This document shows positions 11,660-64,000 of a stretch of DNA of 64,000 bases, one piece after another (within the stretch, counting starts at the first letter, position 1; each line of letters opens with the position of its first letter). This DNA is from Paraspadella gotoi (lineage: Eukaryota; Animalia; Chaetognatha). The DNA lies in the NCBI GenBank assembly GCA_051294375.1, contig CM119269.1, positions 15,015,918 through 15,079,917 of the forward strand. Direction: 5' to 3'. The translations under genes were made by a program, and so were the position numbers. Below the pieces are notes generated by a model, which saw only the letters and a list, made by a program, of their open reading frames with translations, did no database searches and had not been told where the DNA came from.

Positions 11660-12473
11660 GGGCGTAGGCGGTAGAGGCGTCGAAAATGGCGACTTTTGAA
11701 AATTGGAATTTTTTTTTTTTTTCAGATTATGATTATTGACGAGTTATTAAAGTTGAAAACACTTTTAATCTTATTTTCTTAACTTTCTTGTTAAGGAATT
11801 TTATTTAATATTTTTTTACCCAAGCTCCTAAAATTAGTGAATTTATAGTTTATTTAAGTGATCCATTAACATTGCATTGAGAATGTATGTTCTGAATAAG
11901 AATTAAAATTTTGTAGTAATTATATGGCATCTTGAAGAATGGGTTCTAATTTTAATCGCAGAAACCTCAAAAGTTTTAACACGAGAAAGAAAAAGTAAGT
12001 CGCGACGTCTCCCCACTCTTTCAAAGGTAGGGCAAAGAATAAAATAATGGGGAAGAGGAAGAGCAAAATTTTATGGCGTAAAAAGTTTGATGGTGTAGTA
12101 AATAGTCCCTATTGTTTCTATTTCGCTATAAATGAAAAAAAAAAAGGATTTTAAAAGTCAAAATTTTAAATATAATAGACCTTTATCAAAAATTTAAAGG
12201 TGTTTGGGAGTTGAAATAATCAAGTAATCAATTAACAAGAACGGTAATTTCAATGTGTTGCGCCGCAGTGACTTTATTTTAATGTGTATTTTCTTTTGAT
12301 CACATATGTTATGATATGTCATAATATTACATTATATATAATATAACTTTCTTTGCCTGTTTATTTATGATATTGTACTGCATCAAAATTACGTCTTTTA
12401 TTACTTATAGTTTTAGGAATTCCCAAAGGCGGCGCAAGCATTCCCTTAGATTTAAGATTTTTTTCTGTCTTAA

Positions 12474-18970: not shown

Positions 18971-19197
18971 ATGAATCGAAACGGCGAACTTCAGCAAAAA
19001 CTGAACGAGATTATCGATTCGGTATTTTTCTCGTTTTTAATTATAATTATATCTATGATTGGTTAAATTAAATTGTTTATGTCATTAAAAGGTGAGAAAT
19101 AAACTCCCGAGCATCGAAGATTATGACGCCGACGACGACGACGACGTTGAGGGCGACGAATTGAATATCGTTCAACATCCCGTCTCAATGAATGGGT

Positions 19198-19233
<36 letters not shown>

Positions 19234-19306
19234 AGACGACGACGACGACGTTGAGGCGACGAATTGAATATCGTTCAACATCCCGTCTCAATGAATGGGT
19301 GAGTGA

Positions 19307-19359
<53 letters not shown>

Positions 19360-19428
19360 GAGACGACGACGTTGGGGCGACGAATTGAATATCGTTCAAC
19401 ATCCCGTCTCAATGAATGGTGTGAGTGA

Positions 19429-19465
<37 letters not shown>

Positions 19466-19525
19466 GACGACGACGACGTTGAGGGCGAAGAATTGAATAT
19501 CGTTCAACATCCCGTCTCAATGAAT

Positions 19526-19568
<43 letters not shown>

Positions 19569-19650
19569 GACGACGACGACGACGAGTTGAGGGCGACAGA
19601 ATTGAATATCGTTCAACATCCCGTCTCAATGAATGGGTGAGTGAGAGAGT

Positions 19651-19689
<39 letters not shown>

Positions 19690-19759
19690 CGAGACGACGA
19701 CGTTGAGGGCGACGAATTGAATATCGTTCAACATCCCGTCTCAATGAATGGGTGAGTGA

Positions 19760-19800
<41 letters not shown>

Positions 19801-19859
19801 GACGACGACGATTGAGGGCGACAGAATTGAATATCGTTCAACATCCCGTCTCAATGAAT

Positions 19860-19899
<40 letters not shown>

Positions 19900-19962
19900 C
19901 GACGACGACGACGACGTTGAGGGCGAAAATTGAATATCGTTCAACATCCCGTCTCAATGAAT

Positions 19963-20009
<47 letters not shown>

Positions 20010-20079
20010 GACGACGACGACGACGACGTTGAGGGCGAAGAATTGAATATCGTTCAACATCCCGTCTCAATGAATGGGT

Positions 20080-20125
<46 letters not shown>

Positions 20126-20191
20126 GACGACGACGACGACGACGTTGAGGGCGAAGAATTGAATATCGTTCAACATCCCGTCTCAATGAAT

Positions 20192-20228
<37 letters not shown>

Positions 20229-20291
20229 GACGACGACGACGTTGAGGCGAAGAATTGAATATCGTTCAACATCCCGTCTCAATGAATGGGT

Positions 20292-20336
<45 letters not shown>

Positions 20337-20420
20337 CAGACGAGAGACGACGACGACGTTGAGGGCGACGAATTGAATATCGATTCAAACATCCCTCTCA
20401 ATGAATGGGTGAGTGAGAGT

Positions 20421-20457
<37 letters not shown>

Positions 20458-20530
20458 GACGACGACGCTTGAGGGCGACGAATTGAATATCGTTCAACAT
20501 CCCTCTCAATGAATGGGTGAGTGAGAGTGA

Positions 20531-20566
<36 letters not shown>

Positions 20567-23500
20567 GACGACGTTGAGGGCGAGAATTGAATATCGTTCA
20601 ACATCCCGTCTCAATGAATGGGTGAGTGAGAGGAGTCATATACTCAGGCTGCTCGCCGGACAGCAGGCCGTCCACCGGAGCAGCGGCGCGCGGCTGGCCG
20701 AGCAGACTCACTTCTCCTTCCTGGCGCTTCCTTCCGCCTCGGAATCGGGGAGATTTTCTCTCTCTCGATGGTGAGTCGGGCTTCTTCCGGTCGAAGTCCG
20801 AGCGGATCGGGGCCAGGATGCTCTATCTCTCTCTCTCTCCCTCTTGAGCTCTGCTTGGCCATGCACACTCTCTATTTCTAAATCTTTTTTTCTATTAAGT
20901 ATTATTTTTGTCATTCCCTCTCTGCTTTAAGGAGTATCTGTTACATTCCAGGTGCAATAGAAAGCGGCTATTCAAATCAAACAATTCTCTCTTTAATTTC
21001 TCAACCAATTTCGCTAGGCATTAAAAAATAAAAGTTATATACCATTCTTTGTAGAGCTTATAATTTTTGATATCTACTTGATTATTAAAATTACTAGCTA
21101 TTTACTCTTCATATGTCCGCGCGGTAACAAAATATTGAAATTATAATTTATAATCTTAATTTGTTGATCATTTTCTCATTTATCATATTTTTCAATTGTT
21201 TTCAGACATATTTAATCATTATTGTTAAGATTTATATAGCCATTTTATAATATTTTATTTTTAGCTCAAAATCTTAAAATTATTTATTATTTATTTATTA
21301 TTTATTTTGTTGTCGTCAATTTTTATATCATTTTTTTTCATTCTTTTTTCTTTCTTTGCTTTCTGCTCGTTTTTTCTTTCTTTCTTTGCTGCTTTTTTTC
21401 TTTCTTTATTTCTTTTTTTTTCTTTCTTTCTTTCTACATAGTGAAATAACCCTAGCAATAAATGTAATATTAATATTATAATTATTATTATTATTATTAA
21501 AATATAATATTATAAGTCAAAAAAAGACTGCCCTGAACGCCATAATCGAACCCCTCGGAGGCAGAGAGAAGAGACTCGGACGGTGACGAGGGTAAGAGAG
21601 AGAGACTAAAAGAGTAAGTTATCCACTGCGGCTACAGACCGGATCGACTTTGCAGTCCGGCGGATCGGCGGGAGATACAGGGAAGGAAGAGGAAAGAGGA
21701 GTAAGAAGAGGCGAGCGAAGTTAGTCGAAGGTAGGGAGAAGCCGCTCGTGGCCGCTGCGCATGCTGCTCCCGGACGCTGCGCTGATACGAGGTTTCTGAG
21801 TATAGCCATGGAGTCATATACTCAGCTGCTCCCGACGCAGCCGTCCACCGGAGCAGCGGCGCGCGGCTGCCGGAGCGACTCACTTCTCCTTCCGGGCTTC
21901 TCCGCTCGCGATCGGGGAGATTTTCTCTCTCCGATGGTGAGTCGGGCTTCTTCCGGTCGAAGTCCGAGGGATGGGCCGGATCTCTATCTCTCTCTCTCTC
22001 TCTCTACTCTCTTGCCATCACACTCTCTATTTCTATCTTTTTTTTTCTATTAATGTATTATTTTGTCATTCCCTGCTCTCTTTAAGGAGTGTCTGTACAT
22101 TCCAGGTGCAATAGAACCTATTCAAATCAAAAATCTCTCTTTAATTTCTCAACAAATTTCGCTAGGCATTAAAAAAATATAAAGTATATACCACTTTGTA
22201 GAGCTTATAATTTTGATTCTACTTGATTTTAAAAATTACTACTATTTACTCTTTCATATTGTCCTCGCGTAACAAAAATTGAAAATTATATTTATAATCT
22301 TTATTTGTGATCATTTTTCTCATTATCAATTTCAATTGTTTTCAGCATATTTAATCATTATTGTTAGTTTATATCATTTTTAGTAATTATTATTATTTTT
22401 AGCTCAAAAATCTTATAAATTATTATATTATTTATTTATTTATTTATTTTGTTGTCTCAATTTTATAATATTTTTTTCATTCTTTTCTTTCTTTCTTCTC
22501 CGTTTTTTCTTTCTTTTTTCGTTTTTTCTTTCTTGTTATTTTCTTTTTTTTCTTTCTTTCTTGCTACATAGTGAAATAACCCTATCAATGAATGTAATAA
22601 TTAATATTATATTATTATTATTATTATTCAATATATGAAATATTATTATCAAAAAAGACTCCCGAACCCATAATCGAACCCCTCGAGGCAGAGAGAAGAG
22701 ACTCGGCGGTGACGAGGGTAAGAGAGAGAGAAAAGAGTAAGTTATCCACTGCGGCTCAGACCGGATCGACTTTGCAGTCGCGCGGATCCGGGAGATAAGG
22801 AGAAGGAAGAGGAAGAGGAGTAAGAAGAGCCGAGCGAAGTTAGTCGAAGGTAGGGAGAAGCCGCTCGGCCGCTGCGCTGCTGCTCCGGACGCTGCGCTGA
22901 TACGAGGTTTCTGAGTATAGCCATGAGTGAGAGTGAGAGAGAGAGAGAGAGAGAGAGAAGAAGAAAAGAAGAAACAATGAAGCAATGACAATGAGCCCTT
23001 CCCTCCTCCCTCAGGACTTCGACAATGCCCGTTGTCGAGGACGGCTACGACGAAGAGGAAGAAGCAGCCTTCTTCCGAGATCTTGACGAGCGATTCGGGC
23101 CGCCGAAGGAGAAGAACATCGAGGGAAATGGTGAGACGGTTCAGTCTTTTCTTTCTTTGTTTTTTTTTTTAAACTTTTCCTAAAACATTTCCCTCTTCTG
23201 GAAAAAGTATTAAAAGTCATTTCAAACTTAAAGATATAAGTTTTTACCGTCAAGTTGCAAATGCTCTTGGGTTGTTGATAATGAGGATACAGATAACTTA
23301 TTTGAGTTAAGTTGTGGAAGGTAATATTTTTTTTATTTTGCGATCTTTATTTTAAAAAATAGCTTGTCACATCAGTTTGTTTGTTTGTTTGTTTCCTTTA
23401 AAACCCCTTGGCATTTTTCACCGGAGATAAATTGAGTCGATCCTTGTCGGTCAATGTTTAGCCAATTCGATTCGAAATACCCCCCCCTACAGTCCCGGAT

Positions 23501-44133: not shown

Positions 44134-47100
44134 TCAAGTGATTGAGAAAACGGGATTGTCTTGGCCGTCAGCGTTGTCTTCGGGTTTCTAGGAAAGAAAA
44201 GATAAATAAGGAGGATTAGTGGATTACTCAATAAAGTAAACAAGGACTTCTCGCTGTAGTGGAAGTTAAAAGAAAACACTAGGCCTAAAACACAGAGTCA
44301 TATTATTGACAACATTCAAACTTACATCCTCTTTCTTCTCTGTTGTAACTTGGTTGGAAAACCCGTGCTTTTTACTGAAAAAAGAAAGTCGATAAGTAAA
44401 GAGGGATTATTAAAAATACAACCTTATAGCTGTTACACTAATGAATTACGAACTTAATAAGTCCCAAAAGACATCGTAAATTTTTATCGGTATCTCTATA
44501 TAAGATAGAGAAAAATCCTGTTTCTCGTGTTTTTTTCACTTTCTCTGTTATAGAAATTATAAACTTCAAAAGCGCAAATAAATTGACGAATGACCAATCG
44601 CCCAACGGTCCCCTTCAGTTGTGCTTCATCTAACTCTCACCAGTAGAGATACCAGGCGAGAGCGAAAGAGAGACACACGACCAATTTGAAGCACGAGGTG
44701 AGGGCCGTGATTGAAGTGGCCAAACCTTCCTTGTCGTAGAAAATGCAGAATCGCTCTTGGTCGTCCTCAATGTCCCCGGCTTCGTCTTCGTCCTCTGCAG
44801 AATGTGAATATTGAGAGCAACGTTATTAATGGATGCGGCGTTGCTTCCATTGCAACGCGATACCAACGCTAGTTTCTTATTACAGAAATTTCTTTCTTTA
44901 TTTCTATCTTTTCTCTTCCTTCCTTTCTTTCACATCTTTCTTTGACTTTTTTTTTTTTAGAACTCACCCGGATGTGACCAAGCCAAGCAGTTGACGTCAA
45001 AGATGTAACCAAAGAGCGGAGGTCCGGGAATCGTGCCAAATAAGCGACCGAACACCAACTGACAATAAAGTAATCGGCAACGTAATTCACAACATCAGCG
45101 GACACTTTTAAAATTAACAACAAACAAACAGATGCAAAAGCCCAAACCTGAATGCCGACGCCGACTGAGGTCATTTCGCTTTGAACGCATCTCAAGGTGG
45201 CGCTCATCGCCGGCATCGTGACGAAAGACATTGGGAATAACGTTGCCGCAAGGAGAAAGAGTATTACGTAGATCTAAAAGAAAAAATATTGAAAAAATTT
45301 AAAAACTGTATTCCATTCGTGGTTTTTAGATAAACATTTAAGCCTCACATTTCACATTTCACATCTAATATTTAAGGTAAAAAAGACGCTCAAACACTGT
45401 CATTGTAGCGTCGTAGCTAAAAAAAACATCTCACCATGTAATCAGGGCAATCCGAGTCGCATCTCTTTGACTCCACAACTGTGTCTGTGCATCTGCAATT
45501 CTTATTCGCGTCCAAATCTTTCTTTTGACATCCTGAAAACCAAAAAAAAAGGAAAAATTTGATAAAACATCAGAATAGCAGCTGATGAGCTACTTCGTTT
45601 CGGCGGTTGGTCGGTCGGTCTGTTGGCCAGTCCGTCGGTCTGTTTCGCCTACGTTTAAAGGCGATTATCTCACGGAACGCAGACGTTTAGAATAATACTT
45701 AGATATTAAGTGAAGTATCATAAGACCCGCCTTGTTTTGTACACAATCGAGTGAAGAGAAAGTTTATGCGCCACAATTTGCCGTTCCTCGTTCAGATACA
45801 AATAAAGTTTAAGTTTTCGCACTTTCACTCTCAACTTTTTACTTACCCTTCTCCCCCTTTACACTCACTGTCAGCACCTATTTTCTCCTTTTATTTGAAA
45901 TCTTTGCTTTCTCTCAACGACCCATACCAGCTCATCCCTTGCCCTGCCCTCATCCACGCACCCGCGTGACAGGCGCTGAACCACATAACGTCTCCCGAGC
46001 AAATCGGTTGAAAGTCTGAATCGTCGCATTTGCTGCAGATGGACCGCGCCTCATCGCAATAACGGAGCGTCTCGTTGGGTTGCTGCAGGGAAAGGTTGGT
46101 GCGGGAGTCGTAGTTGACCCCTTGGAATTTCACGTCGGAGCATCTGAGGAAGGGGGGGGGGAAGGCGAAGGTTCGTTAGAGGATCGGCGTTGTGTTTTAG
46201 ATAGGTAGCTCTTGAAATGTCGAACCTCAGCAGCAGCGCGAAGGTCTGAGGAATAGTGAAGAAGGAGATGATGGTGCACATGAGCAGAATCTGGCGACAA
46301 TTGAGGTCGAATCTGTTAACCACGAAACCACCCAGCACCATGCCTGAAAAGGAATTAGATCGTTGGACGTCTAGGTTCAAGAATACCGTTCGTTATCTCA
46401 TTTTGATTGTCCACGAAAAAATTTATTTGGCCTATATAAACCAAATGAAACCTAAAAGAACATATGGATAGACGACTTAGTTTATAATTGGATACGCAAA
46501 GAGTAGGTAATGAAATTGGTATAACCAATATAAAAAGTATCCATTAATTTAATAAATGAGCTATCTTGCCCCTGACTTTGGACAGGCTTTGGTAGTTTAA
46601 GGCCTCCATCATTCTTACAAGAAAATGACATGGCAGGTCCCTTCAAGCTTTCAATCAAGACTCTCTCACAGTCTTGTTTATTAACTCCCAGAGTACCTGG
46701 CTTCCATATCAAAGAAGTGGTATGCATGTTACTATCAAATTGGATTAGATTTGAAGAAAATATTTTTGTACGGTCCTTAAGGTAATCATCGATCATTCAT
46801 ACATTAATTCAGCAGTTCAGAAATTCACAAATAAACTAATTTACTCATTCAATAATTAATTAATACATAAATTCATTCATTAATTTACTCATTAAATTCA
46901 TTCAGTCCCTCTATTTACCCAAACTCCCAAATATGACAAGTATCGCTCCAAGCGACGTGGTGGCTTCGGCGGGCGAGAGTCCGATCTGCGACTCGAGGAA
47001 CTTGGGAAGGAAAGCGGCGAAGCCGGCGAGGACGAAGCCTTCGGCGGAGGCGCAGATCGTGATGAGGAGCCACACCGGATTCGAGATCAGCGTCCACAGG

Positions 47101-50100
47101 TCGCGGAGGAACGCCGTCAGCGACCTCCGCGTCCGACGCAGCAGCGAGATCAACTTCCGCAGCAGTTTGGCCACGACGCCGCGTCGTCGCGGAGAAGGCG
47201 TCATCGGCGCCGTAGATGAGTAGCTAGCGTCGAGCGAGGGCGCCGGTTTGGGGGAAGGGGGCGGGGACTGTTTGGCGGGCGGGGATTTTGGTTCTGACGG
47301 TGGCGGGGAGGATGGGTTGAAGGGTTTGAGGGGCGTGGAATGGGACGTGGTTTGAGGGGTGGGGTCCGGGGCGGCGACGTCCGAAGACGCCGTCGATTCG
47401 CTCGTCCGAGAGGCGTCTTTGTCGGAGGGATCGACGGGCGGAGATGAATTGTCGTTGTTGTTAATAGCGGGGGCGGCGCCGGCGCCACGCAAAGCGCGCG
47501 TTCGATAACTCTCGTCGGGACGATTGGCGCGTTTCTCTTCGTAGTCGGGAAGATGCTTAGGGAATCCGCAGATGACGAATCCGACGACGAAGCAAAGGAT
47601 GAAGTTGATGAGGAATCCCAACCACCAAACGCCGACCTTAAGGGGCGAGTGGAGTAGTATGTCTTTTAACCAACTAGAGATTGAGGGGTTTATCGTGAAA
47701 ATCAAACTGGATTTTACCAAGTTTCGAAAAGTTAAATTTATTTTTTAAATTGAATGAAGTTGCTAAAACGAAATATATATATAATATTCATTCATTTAAG
47801 TGCTTCCATCCCTCTAGTGAGATAATTACATTGCAGGACCTCTCACAGTCTCGTTTATTCACTCTTACGTCTTAGAGTACTTTACTTCCCTATTAATGAG
47901 GTGGTATGTTTCAAAGTTTCAATGGTCCATTAGCTTGACAGTTTAATTCATTTTTAAATCTTTAAACTTGTATTTCCTTATATCCTTAGTTATATCGATT
48001 AAGTTTCCTAATTTGGCTCAAATTAAGTAAAAACTCGCGTGATTCTCACTCACTGGAAGTTTCACGAATTTGTAATCAATCCTTGCCAAAGTTCGCTTGA
48101 AGACAAATCGTATTTGTTTTCCCTTTCACTTTCTTACAACATTCTTGGGACACTCATCGGGAAAGCGAATGGCACGTAGAATAAATTATTAAGATAAACA
48201 AGTTGGAAAGTAGTTATCACGAGATAACTTCGCGCCTAAGGCTCAGACTAAGTGGTTTATTTACTGGGCCCAATTAGGGTTGAACTCGAGGTATTTCTAT
48301 AAGCTTTCGAGCATAATTTAATTAAAGATTATTTAAAAAGGTTAACCAAGATTTACAGTTTTACGAGTTTTTTAATGTTTTTTAAGTAATGCAAAAAGAT
48401 AATATTTCTGTTATAACATCTCTTCCCCCTTTTACATAGTAAAAGAAAAGCATGACTCTCTTTCCCATCATCATCATCATCATAATCATTAAAAACTAAA
48501 AACAACAAAAACATCAACGATGACGAAAAAACTAAAACAACAACAACAATAATAATATTAACGCCGACAGCGACAACGACGAAACAAAAACAAGCCCCCC
48601 CCAAAAAAAAACAACAACAACAACTCCCTCCCTGGCCTCCCTTCCGCTCACGAAATTGGGATGCGACGGCTCCAGCGTGAACGAAAAATCGGCGCCCAGA
48701 TCCGTGGGTAAGTTAAGCAGCTGCCCGCCGCCCATGTAGCCGATCGCCGGCCCCACCGCCGCCGCTGCGTAGTAGACCCCGATGAAAAGGGCGCTCTGGG
48801 CCGGCAAGAGATTTTCGTCCAAGTAGGTTACACCCAGGATCCACATGGGACAGGCGCCGATCCCGTGGAGAACTTGACCGTAGACGAACATTCCGATGTA
48901 GTCGTGGAGTGGGATGGAGATTGAGGGATCGAGGGAAGGGCTGAGAAAAAAGTGGGGGGGGGGTTGGTAAAATAGCTCCCTTTGTCTCTCTCTCTCTTTG
49001 TCTATCCTTCTCGTTCTCTCTCTTTCTGTCCCTCTCTGTCTCAGCATATCTTTGTCTCCCTTTCTCTCTATCTCTCTTTCTTTATTTCTTTATTTCATTA
49101 TTTCATTCTCTTTTCAAAGTGTAAATGCTTTTCCGTTCAAATCATTAAGTTACAACAAAAAAAAAACTCGGGAACTATCGGGGGGAAAAACCTGTTCCGT
49201 CACATTCCGTAGTCGTCAAATTAAAGAAAGAAAGATATCAAGATATCAAGATATCAAGAAATCAAGAAAGAAAGAAATCAAGAAATCAAGAAATCAAGAA
49301 AGAAAGAAAGAAAGAAAGAAATTTATGACCAGAGAAAAAAAAGAAATAGCAGAAAACAGTAAAAGAAAGGCTAATAAGTAAATCAATCAATCCATTAATT
49401 GGAAAAAAATAAATATAACGTACAATGCATCTAACGTCAAGTAAGAGTTATTTATTTTATTTTATTTTTTTTAATTTATTTTACTTTGACGTCTGTGACT
49501 CACTCTGATTGGTTGCCTGGCCGGACGAGACAGGGCACCTCCTCTGCCCCGAGCTCCTGGTGGTTGGGGATGTAGTGTTCCGTCGTGAAGTGAGGTAAGG
49601 CAAACATGAGCGACCCTACCCCAATGAACATAATGCCGATCCCGGTCACCAGTGGCTTTCGAGCTTTCGAGCCTGCAATATTTAAAAAAAATAGAATTTT
49701 CATCTCTTTAAATCAATTTTAAAAGTACAGTAGACTGTAAAGAAACATTGTTCATCTGCCTTTTTCATAAGCCGTTCTTTACACAGGGGCATTTAATGAA
49801 TCAACCAGGATTCGATTTCCATATTGTAGTACAAAATAAGAAGTTAATAAAGTTGCGCTTTCAAATGTAACTGTATTAAATTGATAGAACTGACATATAT
49901 TTAAGGAAGCTCACTATAGACTGAGAGTCCGAGACGCAACAGGCAGAGATTTAAACAGACAATGATGTAGAATTGAAGGAAAATTTGAAGGCGGAACAAA
50001 TCAATGACTTACCCCCGTAATAACTGATGGGTAAGGAAGCGAGGAGAGAGGCGATGTCGTAGGACGAAGGGATGAAGCCCGACTTGGTTGAGGTGAGGTG

Positions 50101-53100
50101 GAACCGGCGCTCGAGGGTCGTGATGACGACGTTGACGAGGCCGTTGACGGCGAAGCCTTGGAAGATCGCCGCCAGGGACAACATCGCCAGGACCCATTTG
50201 GGAGATCTGATAAGAATCCGGTTTCGATTAAAGGCTTGACGGAAGAGAGTTGCGACCTAATTTGTCCTTTGTCACGAGAAATTAATCATGTTTGAAGCAT
50301 GTTTACTGTTTAATGTTAGATAAATTTTATAGATAAATGTATTACTTAGAAACTACAAAACATAAATTAAATCATAATACGTCATTAGATAGACAATTCA
50401 TGAACGTTATTCAAAGTCACGAAATTATTCATAATATTAACTGGTTTAAAAACCAAGCGATGGTTGAACTTTCCTCTTTCATTAAACCTGAATCTGTTGC
50501 AATTTTCGCAGGCAAAGCATCCCCAACCGCAAGTGTAGTCCTTCGTTGCCAACACCATCGCCTGAAAGAAACGAGAGAAAAAGGTCTCGTCGCAAGCGGA
50601 ACAAAATCGGGAGAGAGTCCCACCCGCCGGGCCAGGTCGTAAAGAATTTCGGAGAGAAAAAAAAAAAAAGAATTACCGGGTCCAAGCCCGGATTTTTTCC
50701 CCCTCGACTCTTCAGCAAATAAAGATCTTTAAATAAAAAAAAAAAAAAGAAAAGCTGAGAGAGTTTTCTTTGGGAGAGAAACGTAACGAACCGGGGTTTT
50801 TTTGTTTGTTTGTTTTTGTTTTCACCTAATTTAAGGAAATCTAGTATGATTTAACGTGTAATTATGAATTTATTTTTATCACGTTATTATACTTACGCCG
50901 AATTGAAAACCGCGGTGCCCTGCAGTTGAACTGTGTGCCACGGGCACGCGGGCACGGCGTTGATAGGGGACAGTTTGAATTTAACTAGTAACTGTAGAAA
51001 GAAAGCAATTGCTTTAGAAATAAAATCAATAGAAAGTAGGGGTATAAAAACAAAAAAAGAAAGGGTAGATTTTCAGAGGAAGAAATTACTATCAGACCGA
51101 ATTGCAAATCAAAGTTCGTTAAAAATTATTACGTTCTCTGTAATTAACATTATCCCATAAATATTTGGTAGCGCTGAAAACATTCAGTCGTTAAAACTAT
51201 TAAGAGCACATATTCCCGGATCAGTTTATTCAGTAAATAGACAAACATATTTACATATGCGCATTAAAAAACTGCTCGCCCCCCTCTCCCCCGGCTTTAA
51301 AATATTCATTTTAAAAGAAAAAGGGACCAAGATGAGGTTTTGATTAAACAAACATTCGGCAAACGAGTTCTTGACAAACATACGATACGATAAAAACGAA
51401 AATTCGTAAAAACGATAAAGTCATCCGTCTTAAACGAGCGAGTTAAACGTAAAAATAGATTGACAAGAGCGATAGCCGGCAAAATAATGTTTGTTATATA
51501 TAGGACACTTCGCATCAGATGTGAGCTGACTGTCTGGGATCGACCCGAGTTTTTTATAACTAATTTCTCTCTTTTTTTTTATATTTAAACGAAAAAGTTT
51601 CGTCGGATCGGATCGCTCGGTTTTTTCGAGGCAAAACACAAAAATATCGAAAGGAAATAAAACTTTTGGGGCCACAAAAAAAAAAGGAAGGATGAAAGTT
51701 AAAAATTATTTTTTTTGGCGGAGAATGTTGTGGACGATTCGCACCATACGTTGTTCACGTGATTCGATTCATCAGTTTCTTTTTGATTTATTTACTTTGT
51801 TTGTTTTCCTTTCTTTTTCTTTGCGTTATTAGTTTGAGGTAGAAAATGATTGTTTTTTAATATACAACGACTTTTATTATGAAACTCAATTTCGGACATG
51901 GTTTAATTTATTTACTTGAACTTATTTAGTTTAGTTAGTTTAAGATGAAAAAAAAAACAATTCGGGAGAAAAGATAAATTTTGTTTATTTTTGCCCTTTA
52001 GTCAAAATATGAACAAAATTTATTCTTCAGGAAAACAAAATTAAAAAGCATTAATTTGTTTTCTCTTTTTTCCCTATGAAAAAGTTTCATAAAAGTGAAA
52101 CGCTAGTTTTAAAATGAACTTATAAAATGGAAAAAAAGTTGAATATAAACGGACTCTGAGTACAGCTTGAATCGATAAAGAAGGCAAACTGGAAAAAATA
52201 AATCAAACCGTTTGAACTTTTAAAATCCAAATATTTTACAATTATTGACAGTTTAATAAAAGTAACCATAATAGAAAAAAAAAAGAAAAGGAAAAAAATA
52301 TAAAGTCTTATTAAAAATACAATTGTTAATGAAAGTTACTATTCCAAACCTTTTGACTAAAACTAAAATTAAAATTCTTGAACGACGTTTCTCTAGATAT
52401 TACAACTAATTGTGAAATAAGTACATTCAACAGTTTCATTCCATCCGAGTCTGAACGACGCTCAGTAAGAATAATTTCTAAAGTAATCATATTAGCCGGT
52501 AAAATTCTCGGCTTTATGTTCGTATGAACATTGAACAGGATATATTTTTTTAAAAATAAGTAAAAAAAACAAAAAAATCCAAGAGAATTTTTTTTTTGAG
52601 CGTCGCGTTAATGAGCGAAGGGCATCCACCTTCGAACGAAGCTCACAACTGATTTCGATGTTTCTCCCTTTCGACCGCTCGAAGTTCGACCGACGTCCCT
52701 CCGTTAATTTCGGGGCTAAAATGTGTCCCTAGGCCCTAGGTTAAGGGTGATTGATTCGGAGATGAGGTTTCTCATTCTTTTCGTGTATCAGTGCAGACGA
52801 AATGAAACTTTTTTTTTTTAAATTTAATGACATTTTTGATGATATATTGGTTGTACCGATTTTATATAACTTTTTCAGCTAGTTTTTTTTTTCTAATTTA
52901 TTTTATTTAATAAGGCAAATGAGTTCAGACGTTTAGTGGACCAAAAACTACTATCAAGGTCAACAAACATTATTTAATTGCATTGAAAATATTATTTTGG
53001 ATATTGAAAATTACAGATTAGCTCGTCATTACGAATTCGCAAGTCTACTACAACCTGAAAGAGATTACTTTCAATTTAACCACACCGTCTGCTTTCTCTT

Positions 53101-57698: not shown

Positions 57699-58589
57699 AA
57701 ACAGGGTTGGATGTTGCGAGAAGGAAAAACGAGATAGTATTGGTAGGCATGGAAGAATGTTCAATTGTTCATAGAGAGATTATTAAGGGAAGGAGTCCAA
57801 CAGCCGCAATATTCTCGGCAAGCATTTTTGCATTTGTGATTCCTTCAACAACCTAAAGAACTGCTCTGGACGACTTCGCTTCCACAGTAGAACTGAAAGG
57901 CCACACGGTCTTCATCGACCACATTTCTTCGATCAGAGTCTTTAAGTGATTCATCCAATCAGTGATTTCAGTCCAATCAGTGATTTCATCCGAGTCTCTG
58001 ATCCGGTTTGATTCCGATAAGAATCCGATTCGATTCCTTGGTTTAGATTCCACCTTTGATGGTAGGGTCACCTCAAGTCATCAAAACCCTCTCGGCTTTA
58101 AGTTCTAATAGCCTCTCCCAGCGACGCTAAAACCACTCTCTCAAAACAAACATTTTCACTCGTTCAGGTATGTATGTTTCTGCCTTTTTATTATTGCTAT
58201 CGTTACATTTTATGTATGAGTTGTTGTATTCCGTCCCATACGACCCTGACACAGCAATTCCTAGAATTCTTCTATACCGCTACAATGCTACATCTTTCCT
58301 ACAATCTGAAAGAATTAATTTTTATCATGAAGAGATATGTTATGAAGTTTATTCCTTCTTCTCCAACGGTGCGTCTGAGATGCATGGACTCATATTTTTG
58401 GACTTAACTAACTTATTTCATAGACACTTTAAATTTTGACTGTGAGCTTACGGAGTTACGGTACCTGTGTGGCGGTATATTCACACCGCCTCACGTCCTC
58501 CATCGTTCATCCAAATCCATAGGCTCAGAGGGGGAACACACCATCCCAGGCGTAGTGTTCCATCCGCAGTCCTAACGACTTCCCTCTGC

Positions 58590-58670
58590 GTTGGCAAAGC
58601 GAGACCGTCCTAGGGTAACCGCGCCAGTGACTGGAGGCGTCACTGAGGGTCGGAAGCCCCCAAAGCCAAC
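58590..58670 (+). ncRNA. Twister ribozyme motif, type-P5 circular permutation
   Basis: GTTGGC-AAA-GCGA-GA-CCGT-CCTAGG-G-TAA-CCGC-GC-CAGTGAC-tggaggc-GTCACTG-A-GGG-TCGG-AA-GC-CCC-CAAA-GCCAAC maps onto P5/P2'/GA/T1'/P1/UAA/P2/T2/P3/P4/P5'. Confidence 0.75.
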
Positions 58671-59100
58671 AGTGAGATGCCCCATCCCAATGGGCATCAC
58701 AGGCAACCCGGCTGTTGCCATACCTGAACCTTTTTTCCGCATTGCATTCCAACAAGAATCGTCCGTCAGATGGCCCTTTAAAGTAGGCAAAGGTAAAACA
58801 AAAGAGAAGGAGTATTTTGCGGAACATTCAACCTCAATCAGGTTTAACTTCTTCAAACCGGTTCTTTAGCGAAATCGTAACTAAAGAAGTAATTCATTCC
58901 TTTGAAAAAATTAAGGCTAAAATTAAAAAAAAAAAAAATCCCTGCTTTTTACTTCCGCCTTCAAATTAATGACATTTGTACTTTTTTACTTTTCTGTGGA
59001 AGGGGCGGTTTATTATAAAAAATAAACTCACGCCAAACTACATAAGAGTATTCGAGCATTGGTAATTTACAATTGGCTATGGTCAAACTGGTCGTCGACG

Positions 59101-62100
59101 ATGACGCGAAGTGTTTTTATGGTAAGTAAAATGAATTTATCTTTATATGATTCATATTTAGTAATCAGTTCCCATTGATAGGGAAGCCAGGTACTCTGGG
59201 AGTGAATAAACGAGACTGTGAGAGAGTCTTGATTGAAAGCTTGCAGGGACCTGCTATGTCATTATTTTGTAAGAGTGATGGAGGCCTTAAACCACCAAAG
59301 CCTGTCCAAAGTCAGCTTATTTATTAAATTAATGGATAATTGTTATATTGGTTGTACCAATTTCATAAATGTAAATACTTCGAAAACCTAAATTGAAATT
59401 TAGAAAACAAAATTTTTGATTTTTCACAACGAATTTATTCATTTTTCGTGTTTCGAACTTTGTTCTGTTCTTCATCAATGCAATAATACATTTTGAATTA
59501 CAAAATTTTGGTAAGTTAAAAGTTGAGAGAGAGTGGGAGAGAGAGACACAAAGAGTGAGGGAGAGGGAGAGAGAGACACAAAGAGTAAGGGAGAGAGAGA
59601 GAGAATCAAAGGATTGAGGGAAAGGTAACAATTAGAGGGTGAGGACAGTTGACGTTTTAGCTCAGAGGGAAAAAGAAATGAAAGGTCAAAGGAGGAAAAT
59701 GCAGAGGTAATAAATTAGACTTTACATCGTTATAAACTAAAATGAAAGTAAATGTAAATTAAAATTAAATTAATATTGATAACAATAACAATTCAAATAA
59801 GTTAGTTTTAGTTTTTTGAAAAATTAAAGATTAATTTATTACCTCTGCATTTTCCTCCTGTGACCTTTAATTTTTTTTTCTCCTGTATCTATCTATCTGT
59901 CCTCACCCTCTAATTTTTAACTTTCCATCAATCCTTTGTTAGAAGCTTTATCTCTCTGATTCACTCTCTCTCTCCCTCACTCTGTGTCTCTCTCTCCCCC
60001 CCTCTCTCTCTCCATCACAACTTTTAAGTTACCAAAATTTTATAATTCAAAATATATTATTGCACTGATGAAGAATTGAACAATGTTCGAAACATGTCTG
60101 CTCATAAATAAATAAATTCGTTGTGAAAAATCAAAAATTTTGTTTTCTAAATCTTTTACCAACGGAACGAAAGGAAAACAAACACATTAGTTGAAATTAA
60201 AAAAAAAATTTTAGGCTTTTTGTGAATTGAAGACTTTGTTTATATTCGCGAACTTAATCATCTTGGGATCGACTATAACAATTTCAACCAACTTAACGTT
60301 AAAGGAAGAATCATCAACATCCGTTCTTGCTACATGGAATAATCCAAGTGAAAACATATCAAATTATCATATATTCATTGAGCCTGCTGATATTCAAGTT
60401 CCGAAAGTAGTTGAAAGCAATAAAACATTTATTCGATTACAAAACTTGATATCTGGCCGAATTTATAACATTTCTTTACAATATAATGTGACAAAAAATG
60501 AAACAACAGAGCTAATCGTTGAAAAAATAAGCATTACTCTTTCTCCACACCGACCAGAAAATTTAGAATTGACGAAACTGTCAACGACTTCTATTAGAGT
60601 CTCGTGGGAGAAACCTGATGCTACAGACCTAAATTCATATAAAATCTCATTTACACCCAATGATCCAGGNNNNNNNNNNNNNNNNNNNNNNNNNAGGTCC
60701 TTTTACAGTTGACTCAGGTGCTCTTTCAGAAGAAGTTTCTGGTTTGACTCCAGGTAGAGAATATAATGTTTCAATTATATCAAAATCAGGAACAGAAAAT
60801 AGCATTGAAGTACAGAGTTCCATTCGTTTGAATCCTATACCACCTGAAAACATCACATTAACAAAGCTGTCAACAACATCCATTAGAGTCTCATGGAACA
60901 AGTCCGTCACAGATTTAGATTCATATAAAATCTCATTTACACCTAATGATCCATCAGGTCCTTTTACAGTTGACTCAGTGCTCTTTCAGAAAAAGTTACT
61001 GGTTTGAATCCAGGTAGAGAATATAATGTTTCAATTATATCAAAATCAGGAACAGAAAAAAGCATTGAAGCACAGAGTTCCATTCGTTTGAATCCTATAC
61101 CACCTGAAAACATCACATTAACAAAGCTGTCAATAACATCCATTAGAGTCTCATGGAACAAGTCCGTCACAGATTTAGATTCATATAAAATCTCATTTAC
61201 ACCCAATGATCCAGGAGGTCCTTTACAGTTGACTCTGGTGCTTCTTCAAAAGAAGTTTCTGGTTTGACTCCAGGTAGAGAATATAATGTTACAATTATAT
61301 CAAAATCAGGAACAGAAAATAGCATTGAAGCACAGACTACCATTCGTTTGAATCCTAAGCCACCTGAAGAAGTCACATTGACAAAGCTTTCAACAACATC
61401 CATTAGAGTCTCATGGAATAAGTCGCTCACAGATTTAGATTCATATGAAATCTCATTTACACCCAATGATCCATCAGGTCCTTTGACAGTTGACTCCAGT
61501 GCTTCTTCAAAAGAAGTTTCTGGTTTGATTCCAGGTAGAGAATATAATGTTACAATTATATCAAAATCAGGAACAGAAAATAGCATTGAAGCACAGACTA
61601 CCATTCGTTTGAATCCTAAGCCACCTGAAAAAATCACATTAACAAAGCTGTCAACAACATCCATTAGAGTCTCATGGAATAAGTCGGTCACAGATTTAGA
61701 TTCATATGAAATCTCATTTACACCCAATGATCCATCAGGTCCTTTTACAGTTGACTCAGGTGCTCTTTCAGAAGAAGTTACTGGTTTTGACTCCAGGTAG
61801 AGAATATAATGTTTCAATTATATCAAAATCAGGAACAGATAATAGCATTGAAACACAGAGTTCCATTCGTTTGAATCCTAAGCCACCTGAAAAAATCACA
61901 TTAACAAAGCTGTCAACAACATCCATTAGAGTCTCATGGAATAAGTCGGTCACAGATTTAGATTCATATGAAATCTCATTTACACCAATGATCCATCAGG
62001 TCCTTTTACAGTTGACTCTTCTGCTCTTTCAGAAGAAGTTACTGGTTTGACTCCAGGTAGAGAATATAATGTTTCAATTATATCAAAATCAGGAACAGAT

Positions 62101-64000
62101 AATAGCATTGAAACACAGAGTTCCATTCGTTGAATCCTAAGCCACCTGAAAAAATCACATTAACAAAGCTGTCAACAACATCTATTAGAGTCTCATGGAA
62201 TAAGTCGGTCACAGATTTAGATTCATATGAAATCTCATTTACACCCAATGATCCATCAGGTCCTTTGACAGTTGACTCAGGTGCTCTTTCAAAGAAGTTA
62301 CTGGTTTGACTCCAGGTAGAGAATATAATGTTTCAATTATATCAAAATCAGGAACAGAAAAAAGCATTGAAGCACAGAGTTCCATTCGTTTGAATCCTAT
62401 ACCACCTGAAAACATCACATTAACAAAGCTGTCAACAACATCCATTAGAGTCTCATGGAACAAGTCCGTCACAGATTTAGATTCATATAAAATCTCATTT
62501 ACACCCAATGATCCAGGAGTCCTTTTACAGTTGACTCTGGTGCTTCTTCAAAAGAAGTTTCTGGTTTGACTCCAGGTAGAGAATATAATTTTACAATTAT
62601 ATCAAAATCAGGAATAGAAAATAGCATTGAAGCACAGAGTTCCATTCGTTTGAATCCTATACCACCTGAAAACATCACATTAACAAAGCTGTCAACAACA
62701 TCCATTAGAGTCTCATGGAACAAGTCCGTCACAGATTTAGATTCATATAAAATCTCATTTACACCTAATGATCCATCAGGTCCTTTTACAGTTGACTCAG
62801 GTGCTCTTTCAGAAAAAGTTACTGGTTTGAATCCAGGTAGAGAATATAATGTTTTCAATTATATCAAAATCAGGAACAGAAAATAGCATTGAAGCACAGA
62901 GTTCCATTCGTTTGAATCCTATACCACCTAAAAACATCACATTAACAAAGCTGTCAACAACATCCATTAGAGTCTCATGGAACAAGTCCGTCACAGATTT
63001 AGATTCATATAAAATCTCATTTACACCTAATGATCCATCAGGTCCTTTTACAGTTGACTCAGGTGCTCTTTCAGAAGAAGTTACTGGTTTGACTCAGGTA
63101 GAGAATATAATGTTTCAATTATATCAAAATCAGGAACAGAAAAAAGCATTGAAGCACAGAGTTCCATTCATTTGAATCCTATACCACCTGAAAAACATCA
63201 CATTAACAAAGCTGTCAACAACATCCATTAGAGTCTCATGGAACAAGTCCGTCACAGATTTAGATTCATATAAAATCTCATTTACACCCAATGATCCAGG
63301 AGGTCCTTTTACAGTTGACTCTGGTGCTCTCTTCAAAAGAAGTTTCTGGTTTGACTCCAGGTAGAGAATATAATTTTACATTATATCAAAATCAGGAATA
63401 GAAATAGCATTGAAGCACAGAGTTCCATTCGTTTGAATCCTATACCACCTGAAAACATCACATTAACAAAGCTGTCAACAACATCCATTAGAGTCTCATG
63501 GAACAAGTCCGTCACAGATTTAGATTCATATAAAATCTCATTTACACCCAATGATCCAGGAGGTCCTTTTACAGTTGACTCTGGTGCTTCTTCAAAAGAA
63601 GTTTCTGGTTTGACTCCAGGTAGAGAATATAATGTTACAATTATATCAAAATCAGGAACAGAAAATAGCATTGAAGCACAGACTACCATTCGTTTGAATC
63701 CTAAGCCACCTGAAGAAGTCACATTGACAAAGCTTTCAACAACATCCATTAGAGTCTCATGGAATAAGTCGCTCACAGATTTAGATTCATATGAAATCTC
63801 ATTTACACCCAATGATCCATCAGGTCCTTTGACAGTTGACTCCGGTGCTTCTTCAAAGAAGTTTCTGTTTGATTCCAGTAAGAGAAATATAATGTTACAA
63901 TTATATCAAAATCAGGAACAGAAATAGCATTGAAGCACAGACTACCATTCGTTTGAATCCTAAGCCACCTCAAGAAGTCACATTGACAAAGCTTTCAACA
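59101..64000 (+). CDS. Signal-peptide protein with tandem fibronectin type III repeats (R3 receptor-PTP-like or tenascin-like ectodomain), incomplete at 3' end
   Basis: MTRSVFM|gtaagt...ag|AFCELKTLFIFANLIILGSTITIS, then one divergent FN3 and ~14 near-identical ~261-bp (87 aa) units PPENITLTKLSTTSIRVSWNKSVTDLDSYKISF...VSGLTPGREYNVSIISKSG. Scattered 1-bp frameshifts and an N gap. Confidence 0.85.
59393..60198 (+). mobile_element. Large Penelope-like inverted-repeat insertion with hammerhead motif (FN3 gene intron 1)
   Basis: Imperfect ~320-bp inverted arms (~59399-59720 / 59832-60152). Plus strand GCA-CTGATGA-AGAAT-TGAACAAT-GTTC-GAAAC-ATGTC-TGC at 60062-60101; tail CAACGGAACGAAAGGA; flanking TTGAAATT direct repeat. 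Confidence 0.78.

What the first reader, a model, noticed from the sequence alone, without database searches (positions are those of the whole stretch)
58590..58670. Circularly permuted (type-P5) twister ribozyme in an animal intergenic region
Seen: every twister module is present in P5-permuted order. P5 GTTGGC(58590)/GCCAAC(58665); P2 CCGC/GCGA (one C.A mismatch); conserved GA; T1 pseudoknot CGG/CCG; a minimal palindromic P1 (CCTAGG); UAA at 58616-18; T2 GC/GC; perfect 7-bp P3 CAGTGAC/GTCACTG; and P4 A-GGG-UCGG-AA-GC-CCC. Established: this matches the env22 and Osa-1-4 twister architecture, P5-type twisters are the less common permutation, and P1 is partly dispensable. Inference: cleavage would fall between U58616 and A58617, and the palindromic P1 might allow dimer-assisted folding.
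Basis: partly seen in the sequence, partly recalled or inferred. Interest (0 to 1): 0.88.

Follow-up and report, generated by a model that had tools for sequence, protein, structure and literature searches.

The report
Twister ribozyme inside animal retrotransposon LTR
An 81-base RNA fold predicted to cut itself (a twister ribozyme) sits inside a 255-base, many-copy repeat that is likely the leftover end-repeat (LTR) of a small jumping gene in this animal, where it would cut the element's RNA into a unit likely able to close into a circle, a strategy that the papers searched describe only for plant elements with a different ribozyme.

Summary
The twister modules are present at 58590-58670 in type-P5 order, with the catalytic G and A and both pseudoknots intact. 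A descriptor finds this full anatomy in 0 of 600 control windows, but no Rfam twister model scores it significantly.

The motif lies in a 255-bp high-copy repeat, 58468-58722, with sharp TGT...ATA ends and a 4-bp target duplication. In two independent studies the repeat runs into a tRNA-Trp-type primer site. These are the published marks of CsRn1-clade gypsy LTRs, so this is likely a solo LTR. Common variants spare the twister core, but no compensatory pair change was shown.

Best reading: a non-coding mini-LTR element (animal LTR retrozyme) that uses a twister, with a possible tRNA-type Pol III promoter. Cleavage, transcription and circles are untested. The palindromic-P1 dimer idea is not needed. 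This scan has reported the same design before on other DNA of this genome (4 notes); I did not find it in print. New variant of a known kind.

The parts
58464..58467 (.). Left copy of the 4-bp target-site duplication (CCTG)
   Evidence: Sequence. Population ends at 58468/58722 favour the 4-bp reading over a 6-bp one
58468..58722 (+). 255-bp high-copy repeat, ends TGT...ATA, 58% GC; inferred solo LTR of a small gypsy-dependent element
   Evidence: Contigs laid: X1 10664, X2 7607, X7 2555, X8 1922, with sharp ends; ends, TSD and PBS fit CsRn1-clade LTRs
58471..58490 (+). Predicted hairpin at the 5' end of the LTR
   Evidence: Predicted fold
58521..58531 (+). Box-A-like Pol III promoter motif (8 of 10 consensus positions; this copy differs from most copies at 58521)
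   Evidence: variant table
58553..58569 (+). T-arm-like hairpin with a weak box B (6 of 9; lacks GGTTC); this copy differs from most copies at 58566
58590..58595 (+). Twister P5, upstream strand (pairs with 58665-58670)
58599..58607 (+). P2 strand 58599-602, conserved GA 58603-04 (G58603 = predicted general base), T1 strand CCG 58605-07
   Evidence: roles from PMC5408937 and PMC11662667
58608..58615 (+). Minimal closed P1 (2 bp and a 4-nt loop), palindromic core
58616..58624 (+). UAA with predicted cut U58616|A58617 (A58617 = predicted general acid), P2 strand 58619-22, T2 strand GC 58623-24
58625..58645 (+). P3 hairpin, 7 bp; its loop 58632-38 holds the common family variants and the indels of a diverged relative
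58646..58661 (+). P4 and L4 (U, T1 strand CGG, AA, T2 strand GC)
58665..58670 (+). Twister P5, downstream strand
58676..58719 (+). Two predicted hairpins at the LTR 3' end (58676-98, 58702-19), about as conserved among copies as the twister
58723..58726 (.). Right copy of the 4-bp target-site duplication (CCTG)
58731..58736 (+). T6 run in the flank, a possible Pol III terminator for this copy; the LTR itself has no T4 run

Best explanation
This 255-bp repeat is likely a solo LTR of a small, likely non-coding retrotransposon (TRIM, LTR-retrozyme type) whose LTR carries a type-P5 twister fold predicted to self-cleave at U58616|A58617, so that a full element would be cut once in each LTR into a unit RNA that would likely be circularised and copied by a helper gypsy element. 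Shown: the twister anatomy; a high-copy dispersed repeat with sharp ends; TGT...ATA termini; a 4-bp duplication; a tRNA-Trp-type primer site 2 nt behind the LTR in two independent studies; common variants outside the twister core. Inferred: transcription, probably by Pol III from a tRNA-like box A/B starting near 58514; cleavage; a unit of roughly 480 nt (LTR plus about 230 nt of internal sequence) with no terminal repeat; end-joining helped by P5, P2 and both pseudoknots holding the two cut ends together; tRNA-Trp priming and integration by a CsRn1-clade gypsy RT and integrase; LTR-LTR recombination leaving this solo copy. This copy cannot propagate alone (no PBS follows it), although its twister core is like that of most copies.
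For: Anatomy and controls: (descriptor recovers 5 of 5 Rfam-positive viral loci; full anatomy in 0 of 600 controls). T1 is fully paired with 2 of 3 pairs flipped against the CCC/GGG of the viral examples. Repeat: 10664, 7607, 2555 and 1922 contigs laid in four DNA runs; loose ends pile up at 58468 and 58722 (X1: 117 and 179 contigs), flank consensus ATAT on both sides. TSD CCTG. X9 (study P3) and X12 (study P5) both continue behind 58722 with the same 21 nt, which match 10 nt of the published CsRn1-clade PBS; that clade also has 4-bp TSDs and TGT...ATA ends (PMC2582038 section 6). The single X12 contig has about 233 nt before the LTR and the PBS after it, as a collapsed or cyclic internal+LTR unit would. 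Selection: variants at >=4% hit 12 of 122 upstream positions and 1 of 70 non-loop twister positions (Fisher p 0.034), and that one turns the P4 A.C into a standard pair; all 8 X12 substitutions lie in 58521-76 and its indels lie in the P3 loop. Twisters tolerate P1, P2 and P4 flaws (PMC11662667). Precedent: plant LTR retrozymes (PMC4918200) and animal Helenus TRIMs (PMC10886601).
Against: No significant Rfam twister hit. No compensatory double change within the family was shown, and variants cannot be phased. Two low-level CpG-type variants break end pairs of P5 and P3; 33 of 73 variant rows were not shown; the 4% cut was chosen after seeing the data; the LTR 3' end is as conserved as the twister. 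The folding model, which has no pseudoknots, gives P2, P4 and P1 <=0.02 in the isolated motif; in the whole LTR it replaces P3 and P5 by a rival helix, and the twister secondary structure costs 13.6 kcal/mol. I did not see a full two-LTR copy, a polypurine tract or the internal sequence, so non-coding status and unit length are inferred. The PBS match is 10 nt, in 2 contigs, neither from a run of organism A. Box B is weak, and an A+B pair this good occurs in 331 of 4000 controls. This copy also fits a 6-bp TSD with TG...CA ends. Summed contig depth is not a copy number.
Confidence: 0.65

Rival explanations
1. Solo LTR of an autonomous CsRn1-clade gypsy element; the twister trims or ends its RNA, or frees it from read-through transcripts, with no circular intermediate.
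For: Ends, TSD and PBS match the autonomous CsRn1 clade, and LTR lengths shown in its table run 146-383 bp. Twister variants process the 5' end of the LINE Perere-3 (PMC8501958 abstract).
Against: A cut inside both LTRs removes the R repeat needed for strand transfer unless the RNA circularises (reasoning as in PMC4918200). No AATAAA/ATTAAA signal in the LTR. The X12 contig fits a short internal part. Unchecked scan notes report full non-coding copies of 647-742 nt in this genome.
Confidence: 0.12
2. The twister is a passenger: a TRIM picked it up and spread by ordinary linear reverse transcription; the ribozyme is slow, switched off by the rival helix, or dead.
For: No Rfam hit; rival fold in the whole LTR; no covariation shown; the LTR 3' end is as conserved as the twister; a young family varies little anyway.
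Against: The catalytic residues and both pseudoknots are intact, common variants fall in loops, and a diverged relative keeps the core unchanged while it loses 4 nt of the P3 loop.
Confidence: 0.13
3. One reading: the ribozyme works only as a dimer through the palindromic P1 (for example between the two LTRs), which would restrict cleavage to full-length transcripts.
For: P1 hairpin is unstable (+2.7 kcal/mol) and the self-duplex is -11.0; most copies keep the palindrome; minimal hammerheads of other retroelements act as dimers (PMC7761336 passages).
Against: P1 is dispensable in twisters; variants at 58611 and 58612 exist, and one at 58612 has no mirror partner at >=1% in X1.
Confidence: 0.06
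4. A SINE, a MITE (Ginger-like) or a non-LTR retrozyme monomer rather than an LTR.
For: Short, dispersed, with a tRNA-like head; Ginger2 elements have TGT ends, 4-bp TSDs and AT-rich targets (PMC2836005 passages).
Against: Terminal inverted repeat is only 5 of 6 bp, against about 40-270 bp for Ginger; no tail; both ends sharp; single copy here, not tandem; PBS behind the 3' end in two studies.
Confidence: 0.04

Closest known systems
Plant LTR retrozymes (Cervera, Urbina, de la Pena 2016, PMC4918200; parts 1-2 of 7 read)
   Same: Self-cleaving ribozyme inside a short LTR, 4-bp TSD, gypsy-type PBS, solo LTRs, GC above 55%
   Different: Animal host; twister instead of type III hammerhead; tRNA-Trp-type instead of tRNA-Met PBS; 255-bp instead of about 350-bp LTR; possible tRNA-type promoter; circles not shown here
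Animal Helenus TRIMs, above all Helenus-2_SyJa and Helenus-2_SyUm of gall wasps (Kojima 2024, PMC10886601; parts 1-4 of 6, passages and supplement searches)
   Same: Short gypsy-dependent LTR element, 4-bp TSD, tRNA-like stretch in the LTR. Helenus-2_SyJa has a tRNA-Trp PBS; its LTR and that of Helenus-2_SyUm show a hammerhead-like CTGATGA...GAAAC motif behind the tRNA part (read by eye)
   Different: Twister instead of hammerhead; box B here lacks GGTTC. The paper's main text has 'ribozyme' only in a reference, and four L4-motif searches found no twister in its LTR consensus set
CsRn1-clade Ty3/gypsy elements (PwRn1, AgCR; PMC2582038, section 6 and passages read)
   Same: TGT...ATA termini, 4-bp TSD, tRNA-Trp PBS
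   Different: Those are autonomous, and the passages read mention no ribozyme; no target preference there, AT-rich symmetric preference here
Type-P5 twister ribozymes (Rfam RF02684; viral loci L021-L023, L025, L026)
   Same: Same module order, all core residues, both pseudoknots
   Different: P1 cut to 2 bp, P3 inserted, T1 flipped at 2 of 3 pairs, real P5 stem; no score against the model
Schistosoma twister variants in Perere-3 (PMC8501958, abstract) and animal non-LTR retrozymes (PMC7229834 passages; bioRxiv 2026.07.22.740005 part 1 of 5)
   Same: Ribozymes tied to retrotransposition in animals
   Different: Those sit at the 5' end of a LINE or in tandem repeats with type I hammerheads, without LTR or PBS

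Membership tests
Twister ribozyme, type P5 | Conserved core: GA, N-A-A at the cut, GC, U...AA-GC in L4 | tested here: met
Twister ribozyme, type P5 | Pseudoknots T1 (3 bp plus A.A) and T2 (2 bp) | tested here: met
   T1 3 of 3 and T2 2 of 2 Watson-Crick; A58604 and A58654 in place
Twister ribozyme, type P5 | Stems P1, P2, P4 | tested here: inconclusive
   P2 3 of 4, P4 3 of 4, P1 only 2 bp; not favoured by pseudoknot-free folding; such flaws are tolerated in P1-type twisters
Twister ribozyme, type P5 | Termini in P5, with P1 and P3 closed by loops | tested here: met
   definition in PMC5408937
Rfam RF02684 / RF03160 / P3 model | Score at or above the gathering threshold | tested here: not met
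   5 of 6 viral control loci pass RF02684
Twister ribozyme, type P5 | Compensatory changes among relatives | tested here: inconclusive
   T1 is flipped against viral examples; within the family only single changes, unphased
Twister ribozyme, type P5 | Site-specific self-cleavage | not testable with these tools
   Only contigs were available
Gypsy LTR (CsRn1 clade type) | TGT...ATA or AAA termini and 4-bp TSD | tested here: met
Gypsy LTR (CsRn1 clade type) | tRNA-Trp PBS directly behind the 5' LTR | tested here: met
   10-nt match in X9 and X12, 2 contigs from 2 studies; absent at this locus, as expected for a solo LTR
Gypsy LTR (CsRn1 clade type) | PPT before the 3' LTR; gag-pol with CHCC motif | not testable with these tools
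   No genome held; internal sequence not displayed
LTR retrozyme (plant definition) | Self-cleaving ribozyme in the LTR | tested here: met
   Twister fold inside the LTR; activity untested
LTR retrozyme (plant definition) | Hammerhead ribozyme and tRNA-Met PBS | tested here: not met
   No hammerhead core on either strand; PBS is Trp-type. It works like a retrozyme but is not a member as defined
LTR retrozyme (plant definition) | Two LTRs around a short non-coding region | tested here: inconclusive
   X12 contig layout fits about 230 nt internal; no full copy seen
LTR retrozyme (plant definition) | Circular RNA accumulates | not testable with these tools
   No raw RNA reads offered
Helenus / TRIMp3 | tRNA-like box A (TRGCY...YGG) | tested here: inconclusive
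   8 of 10 here, better in most copies; an A+B pair occurs in 331 of 4000 controls at this copy's score, 31 of 4000 at one match more
Helenus / TRIMp3 | Box B with GGTTC | tested here: not met
   6 of 9, no GGTTC; no tRNA by ARAGORN or Rfam
Helenus / TRIMp3 | 4-bp TSD in animals, gypsy-type PBS | tested here: met
Non-LTR retrozyme | Tandem repeats with type I hammerhead, no LTR or PBS | tested here: not met
Ginger-type MITE | Terminal inverted repeats of about 40-270 bp | tested here: not met
   Only 5 of 6 bp

The most novel reading that the evidence does not exclude
Animals have their own LTR retrozymes: Pol III-driven, tRNA-Trp-primed mini-LTR elements that replicate through ribozyme-made circular RNA and have recruited the ribozyme more than once, a permuted twister with a shrunken P1 here and a hammerhead in wasp Helenus-2. 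The P5 permutation keeps the two cut ends paired for ligation, and a rival helix just behind P5 switches the ribozyme off once the U3 part is present.
Probability: 0.45. Interest if true: 0.8.

Novelty: new variant of a known kind. Interest (0 to 1): 0.66.

Why it matters
The reviews and papers read place LTR retrozymes in plants (type III hammerhead) and give animals only non-LTR retrozymes; twister's known retrotransposon role is at the 5' end of LINEs. A twister in the LTR of a high-copy animal element would extend the circle-based retrotransposition strategy to animals and to a second ribozyme class, and would give a concrete job to eukaryotic twisters. It also shows a class of twister that current Rfam models miss (2-bp P1, P3 plus P5, flipped T1); the large CHiTA survey covered type-P1 forms only. 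It is directly testable with one cleavage assay and one divergent RT-PCR. A lone P5 twister would be routine; the element context carries the interest.

Tried and rejected
No whole genome is held, so there was no genome-wide copy count and no full-length copy. No second copy in the window. Family pattern: 0 matches in viral contigs and 0 in prokaryote genomes. A looser pattern in metagenomes gave 20 matches; none is related (best BLAST E 0.096) and the 10 of 20 scanned had no Rfam hit. No RNA holder was listed on record; X9 and X10 are guessed RNA, so expression, strand and cut ends could not be read, and I did not use the depth profile of X10. No joint showing an empty site or an internal bridge was among the rows shown (30 and 81 joint rows not shown). 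MAFFT misaligned the motif with the viral twisters, so no pair counts or covariance model were made from it; a first module regex missed the window copy and was replaced. A U6-type upstream promoter was considered by eye and dropped once the repeat ends were known. A relaxed ARAGORN hit was an artefact with a 140-nt intron. The OATP homologue search did not identify the lineage (3 hits, best named one 41%). The exact PBS motif was not found in papers; the clade was found by name. The CHiTA supplement could not be read, and bioRxiv supplements are closed; either could list related sequences.

Full report
1. Observation. The sequence at 58590-58670 holds all twister modules in the order P5 - P2 - GA - T1 - closed P1 - UAA - P2 - GC - P3 - P4/L4 - P5. 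Pairing is P5 6 of 6, P3 7 of 7, T1 3 of 3, T2 2 of 2, P2 3 of 4 and P4 3 of 4; P1 is 2 bp with a 4-nt loop. G58603 and A58617 sit where the general base and acid sit in solved twisters (PMC5408937: parts 1-2 of 7 and passages; PMC11662667: abstract, results parts 2-4 of 5 and passages). Residue-level numbering of env22 and Osa is partly recalled; Roth et al. 2014 was not read.

2. Chance and Rfam. Rfam gives only U6 at gathering level in the window. Around the locus the best twister signal is a partial twister-P1 match, 15.2 bits, E 4 in 701 nt and 0.63 in 111 nt; Twister-P5 gives nothing at E<=10. As a control I fetched 6 viral loci with a generic permuted-twister pattern; 5 of 6 pass Twister-P5 at 44-59 bits, and the model shown has an 8-bp P1, no P3 and no P5 stem, all unlike this motif. 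My descriptor recovers those 5 loci (two are identical at the motif) and the window copy, and shows T1 as CGG/CCG against their CCC/GGG. It gave 51 core hits in 600 control windows and none with both side stems. A looser version gave 4 hits in the real window and 5.25 per control window. So the core alone is weak evidence and the full anatomy is strong; the descriptor was written after seeing the locus.

3. Context. No genome is held and the window has no second copy. Public runs hold the stretch (12 listed, 5 studies); I laid 8 of the 12. A sharply bounded repeat appeared at 58468-58722: 1922 contigs in X8 and 453 in X10, 10664 in X1, 7607 in X2 and 2555 in X7. Loose ends in X1 lie at 58468 (117 contigs), 58467 (36), 58722 (179), 58723 (57) and 58721 (24). 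That is at least a few hundred junctions; summed depth is thousands of times that of the flank but is not a copy number. The flank consensus is ATAT on both sides, a symmetric target preference. This copy has CCTG on both sides; a 6-bp duplication with TG...CA ends also fits this copy alone, but the population end at 58722 favours 4 bp and TGT...ATA.

4. It is likely an LTR. The single contig in X9 (organism B, study P3; 2 differences in 191 nt) and the single contig in X12 (biofilm metagenome, study P5; 8 substitutions, 4 gap letters) both continue behind 58722 with the same 21 nt: a 2-nt spacer, then 10 nt matching the PBS published for CsRn1-clade gypsy elements. That clade has a tRNA-Trp PBS, 4-bp TSDs and ends changed to TGT...AAA or TGT...ATA (PMC2582038: passages and section 6). 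The X12 contig is 506 nt, with 58517-58722 at record 284-485; that leaves about 233 nt before the LTR start. If the contig is a collapsed internal+LTR cycle, the unit is about 476-485 nt. I could not see those letters, so this is inference. At this locus no PBS follows the LTR and the TSD flanks it directly, as for a solo LTR.

5. Variation among copies. One search showed 40 of 73 variant rows. I tabulated 37 of them, leaving out 3 that are specific to X12. This copy differs from nearly all others at 58499, 58510, 58521 and 58566, none in the twister. Variants at >=4% in X1 or X2 hit 12 of 122 upstream positions and 3 of 81 twister positions: two in the P3 loop and one at 58661 that makes the outer P4 pair standard (1 of 70 non-loop positions; Fisher p 0.034, threshold chosen afterwards). 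No catalytic or T2 residue is among the rows shown. Smaller variants (1.5-3.2% in X1 and X2) give wobbles in T1 and P5, alter the P1 loop, or, at two CpG sites, break an end pair of P5 or P3. All 8 X12 substitutions lie in 58521-58576; for the 6 not private to this copy, p = 0.0017 for all falling upstream and 0.048 for none in the twister. Its indels lie in the P3 loop. The 3' 52 nt are equally conserved, and no compensatory double change could be shown.

6. Promoter and folding. After reading Kojima 2024 (PMC10886601: parts 1-4 of 6, passages, supplement part 1 of 11 and term searches) and the scan's notes, I looked for a tRNA-like promoter. There is a box-A-like motif at 58521-31 (8 of 10) and a T-arm-like hairpin at 58553-69 with a weak box B (6 of 9, no GGTTC). 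Such a pair occurs in 331 of 4000 controls, or 31 of 4000 with one more box A match: suggestive only. The LTR has no poly(A) signal and no T4 run. Pseudoknot-free folding gives P3 and P5 at 0.9 or more for RNA starting at 58514, but for RNA starting at 58468 a rival helix between the P3 3' strand and 58670-75 takes over (0.99); P1 and P4 are not favoured in either, and P2 only in the longer RNA. This may be a switch, an artefact, or an effect of this copy's private changes.

7. Mechanism. Shown: the fold, the repeat, its ends, the duplication, the PBS link and the variation pattern. Inferred: a full element is transcribed from the 5' LTR and cut at U|A in both LTRs. The product runs from A58617-equivalent through the internal part to U58616-equivalent and has no terminal repeat, so it needs to circularise before a helper gypsy RT, primed by tRNA-Trp, can make a two-LTR copy. 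This is the cycle proposed for plant retrozymes (PMC4918200: parts 1-2 of 7; PMC7761336 passages; PMC5680766 passages; PMC6765202 passages). In the P5 permutation the two cut ends stay paired through P5, P2, T1 and T2, which would suit ligation. My odds: solo LTR about 0.9, active twister about 0.8, circle route in a non-coding element about 0.65.

8. Comparison and novelty. It works like an LTR retrozyme but fails the plant definition (no hammerhead, Trp-type PBS). It resembles Helenus but fails the box B feature. Helenus-2_SyJa of gall wasps has a tRNA-Trp PBS, and its LTR and that of Helenus-2_SyUm show a hammerhead-like motif that the paper's main text does not mention (read by eye). The papers read assign LTR retrozymes to plants and non-LTR ones to animals (bioRxiv 2026.07.22.740005 part 1 of 5; PMC7229834 passages). 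Ten searches (listings and abstract starts only, apart from the papers named) showed no twister in an LTR. The library lacks most subscription journals, and two supplements of interest could not be seen.

9. Earlier scan notes. I had the LTR, CsRn1 and PBS reading. The notes then reported the same design on four other pieces of this genome, including full copies of 647, 663 and 742 nt; the last, with a 488-nt unit, implies a 254-nt LTR and 234-nt internal part, close to my X12 estimate. They are unchecked AI notes, and sequence look-ups did not link them to this copy. One note suggests an arrow worm; I did not test that.

10. Verdict. Observation confirmed; interpretation partly supported; new variant of a known kind; interest 0.66.

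Noticed in passing
window 27688-27791 (-): U6 snRNA gene, 119 bits, with a TATA-like run about 25-30 nt upstream.
   Followed up: partly
window about 44900-50300 (-): Multi-exon OATP/SLCO transporter gene; one exon matches SLCO2A1 at E 1e-10.
   Followed up: partly
window 60695-64000 (+): 12.7 tandem 260-bp units encoding repeats that look like fibronectin type III (recalled, not tested); many frameshifts, possibly sequencing errors.
   Followed up: no
window 7300-11743 (-): Intron-containing gene that looks like a BCCT-family betaine/choline transporter (motif recalled, not tested), a family I recall mainly from bacteria.
   Followed up: no
window 46510-46712 and 59175-59366; 37945-38172 and 40812-41033: Two other dispersed repeat pairs, about 88% identical; no twister descriptor hit in them.
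   Followed up: partly
window 58670-58676: CAGTGAG right after P5 nearly repeats the P3 5' strand and can pair with the P3 3' strand; a possible off-switch.
   Followed up: partly
PMC10886601 supplement, Helenus-2_SyJa-LTR and Helenus-2_SyUm-LTR: Hammerhead-like motif behind the tRNA-like part, not mentioned in the paper's main text; an earlier scan note named these two families.
   Followed up: partly
L021-L023, L025, L026: Five phage-contig loci with Rfam type-P5 twisters, used as controls; L024 matches the pattern but not Rfam.
   Followed up: partly
window 19131-20632: Tandem array of a unit built from GA and GAC microsatellites plus a fixed spacer.
   Followed up: no
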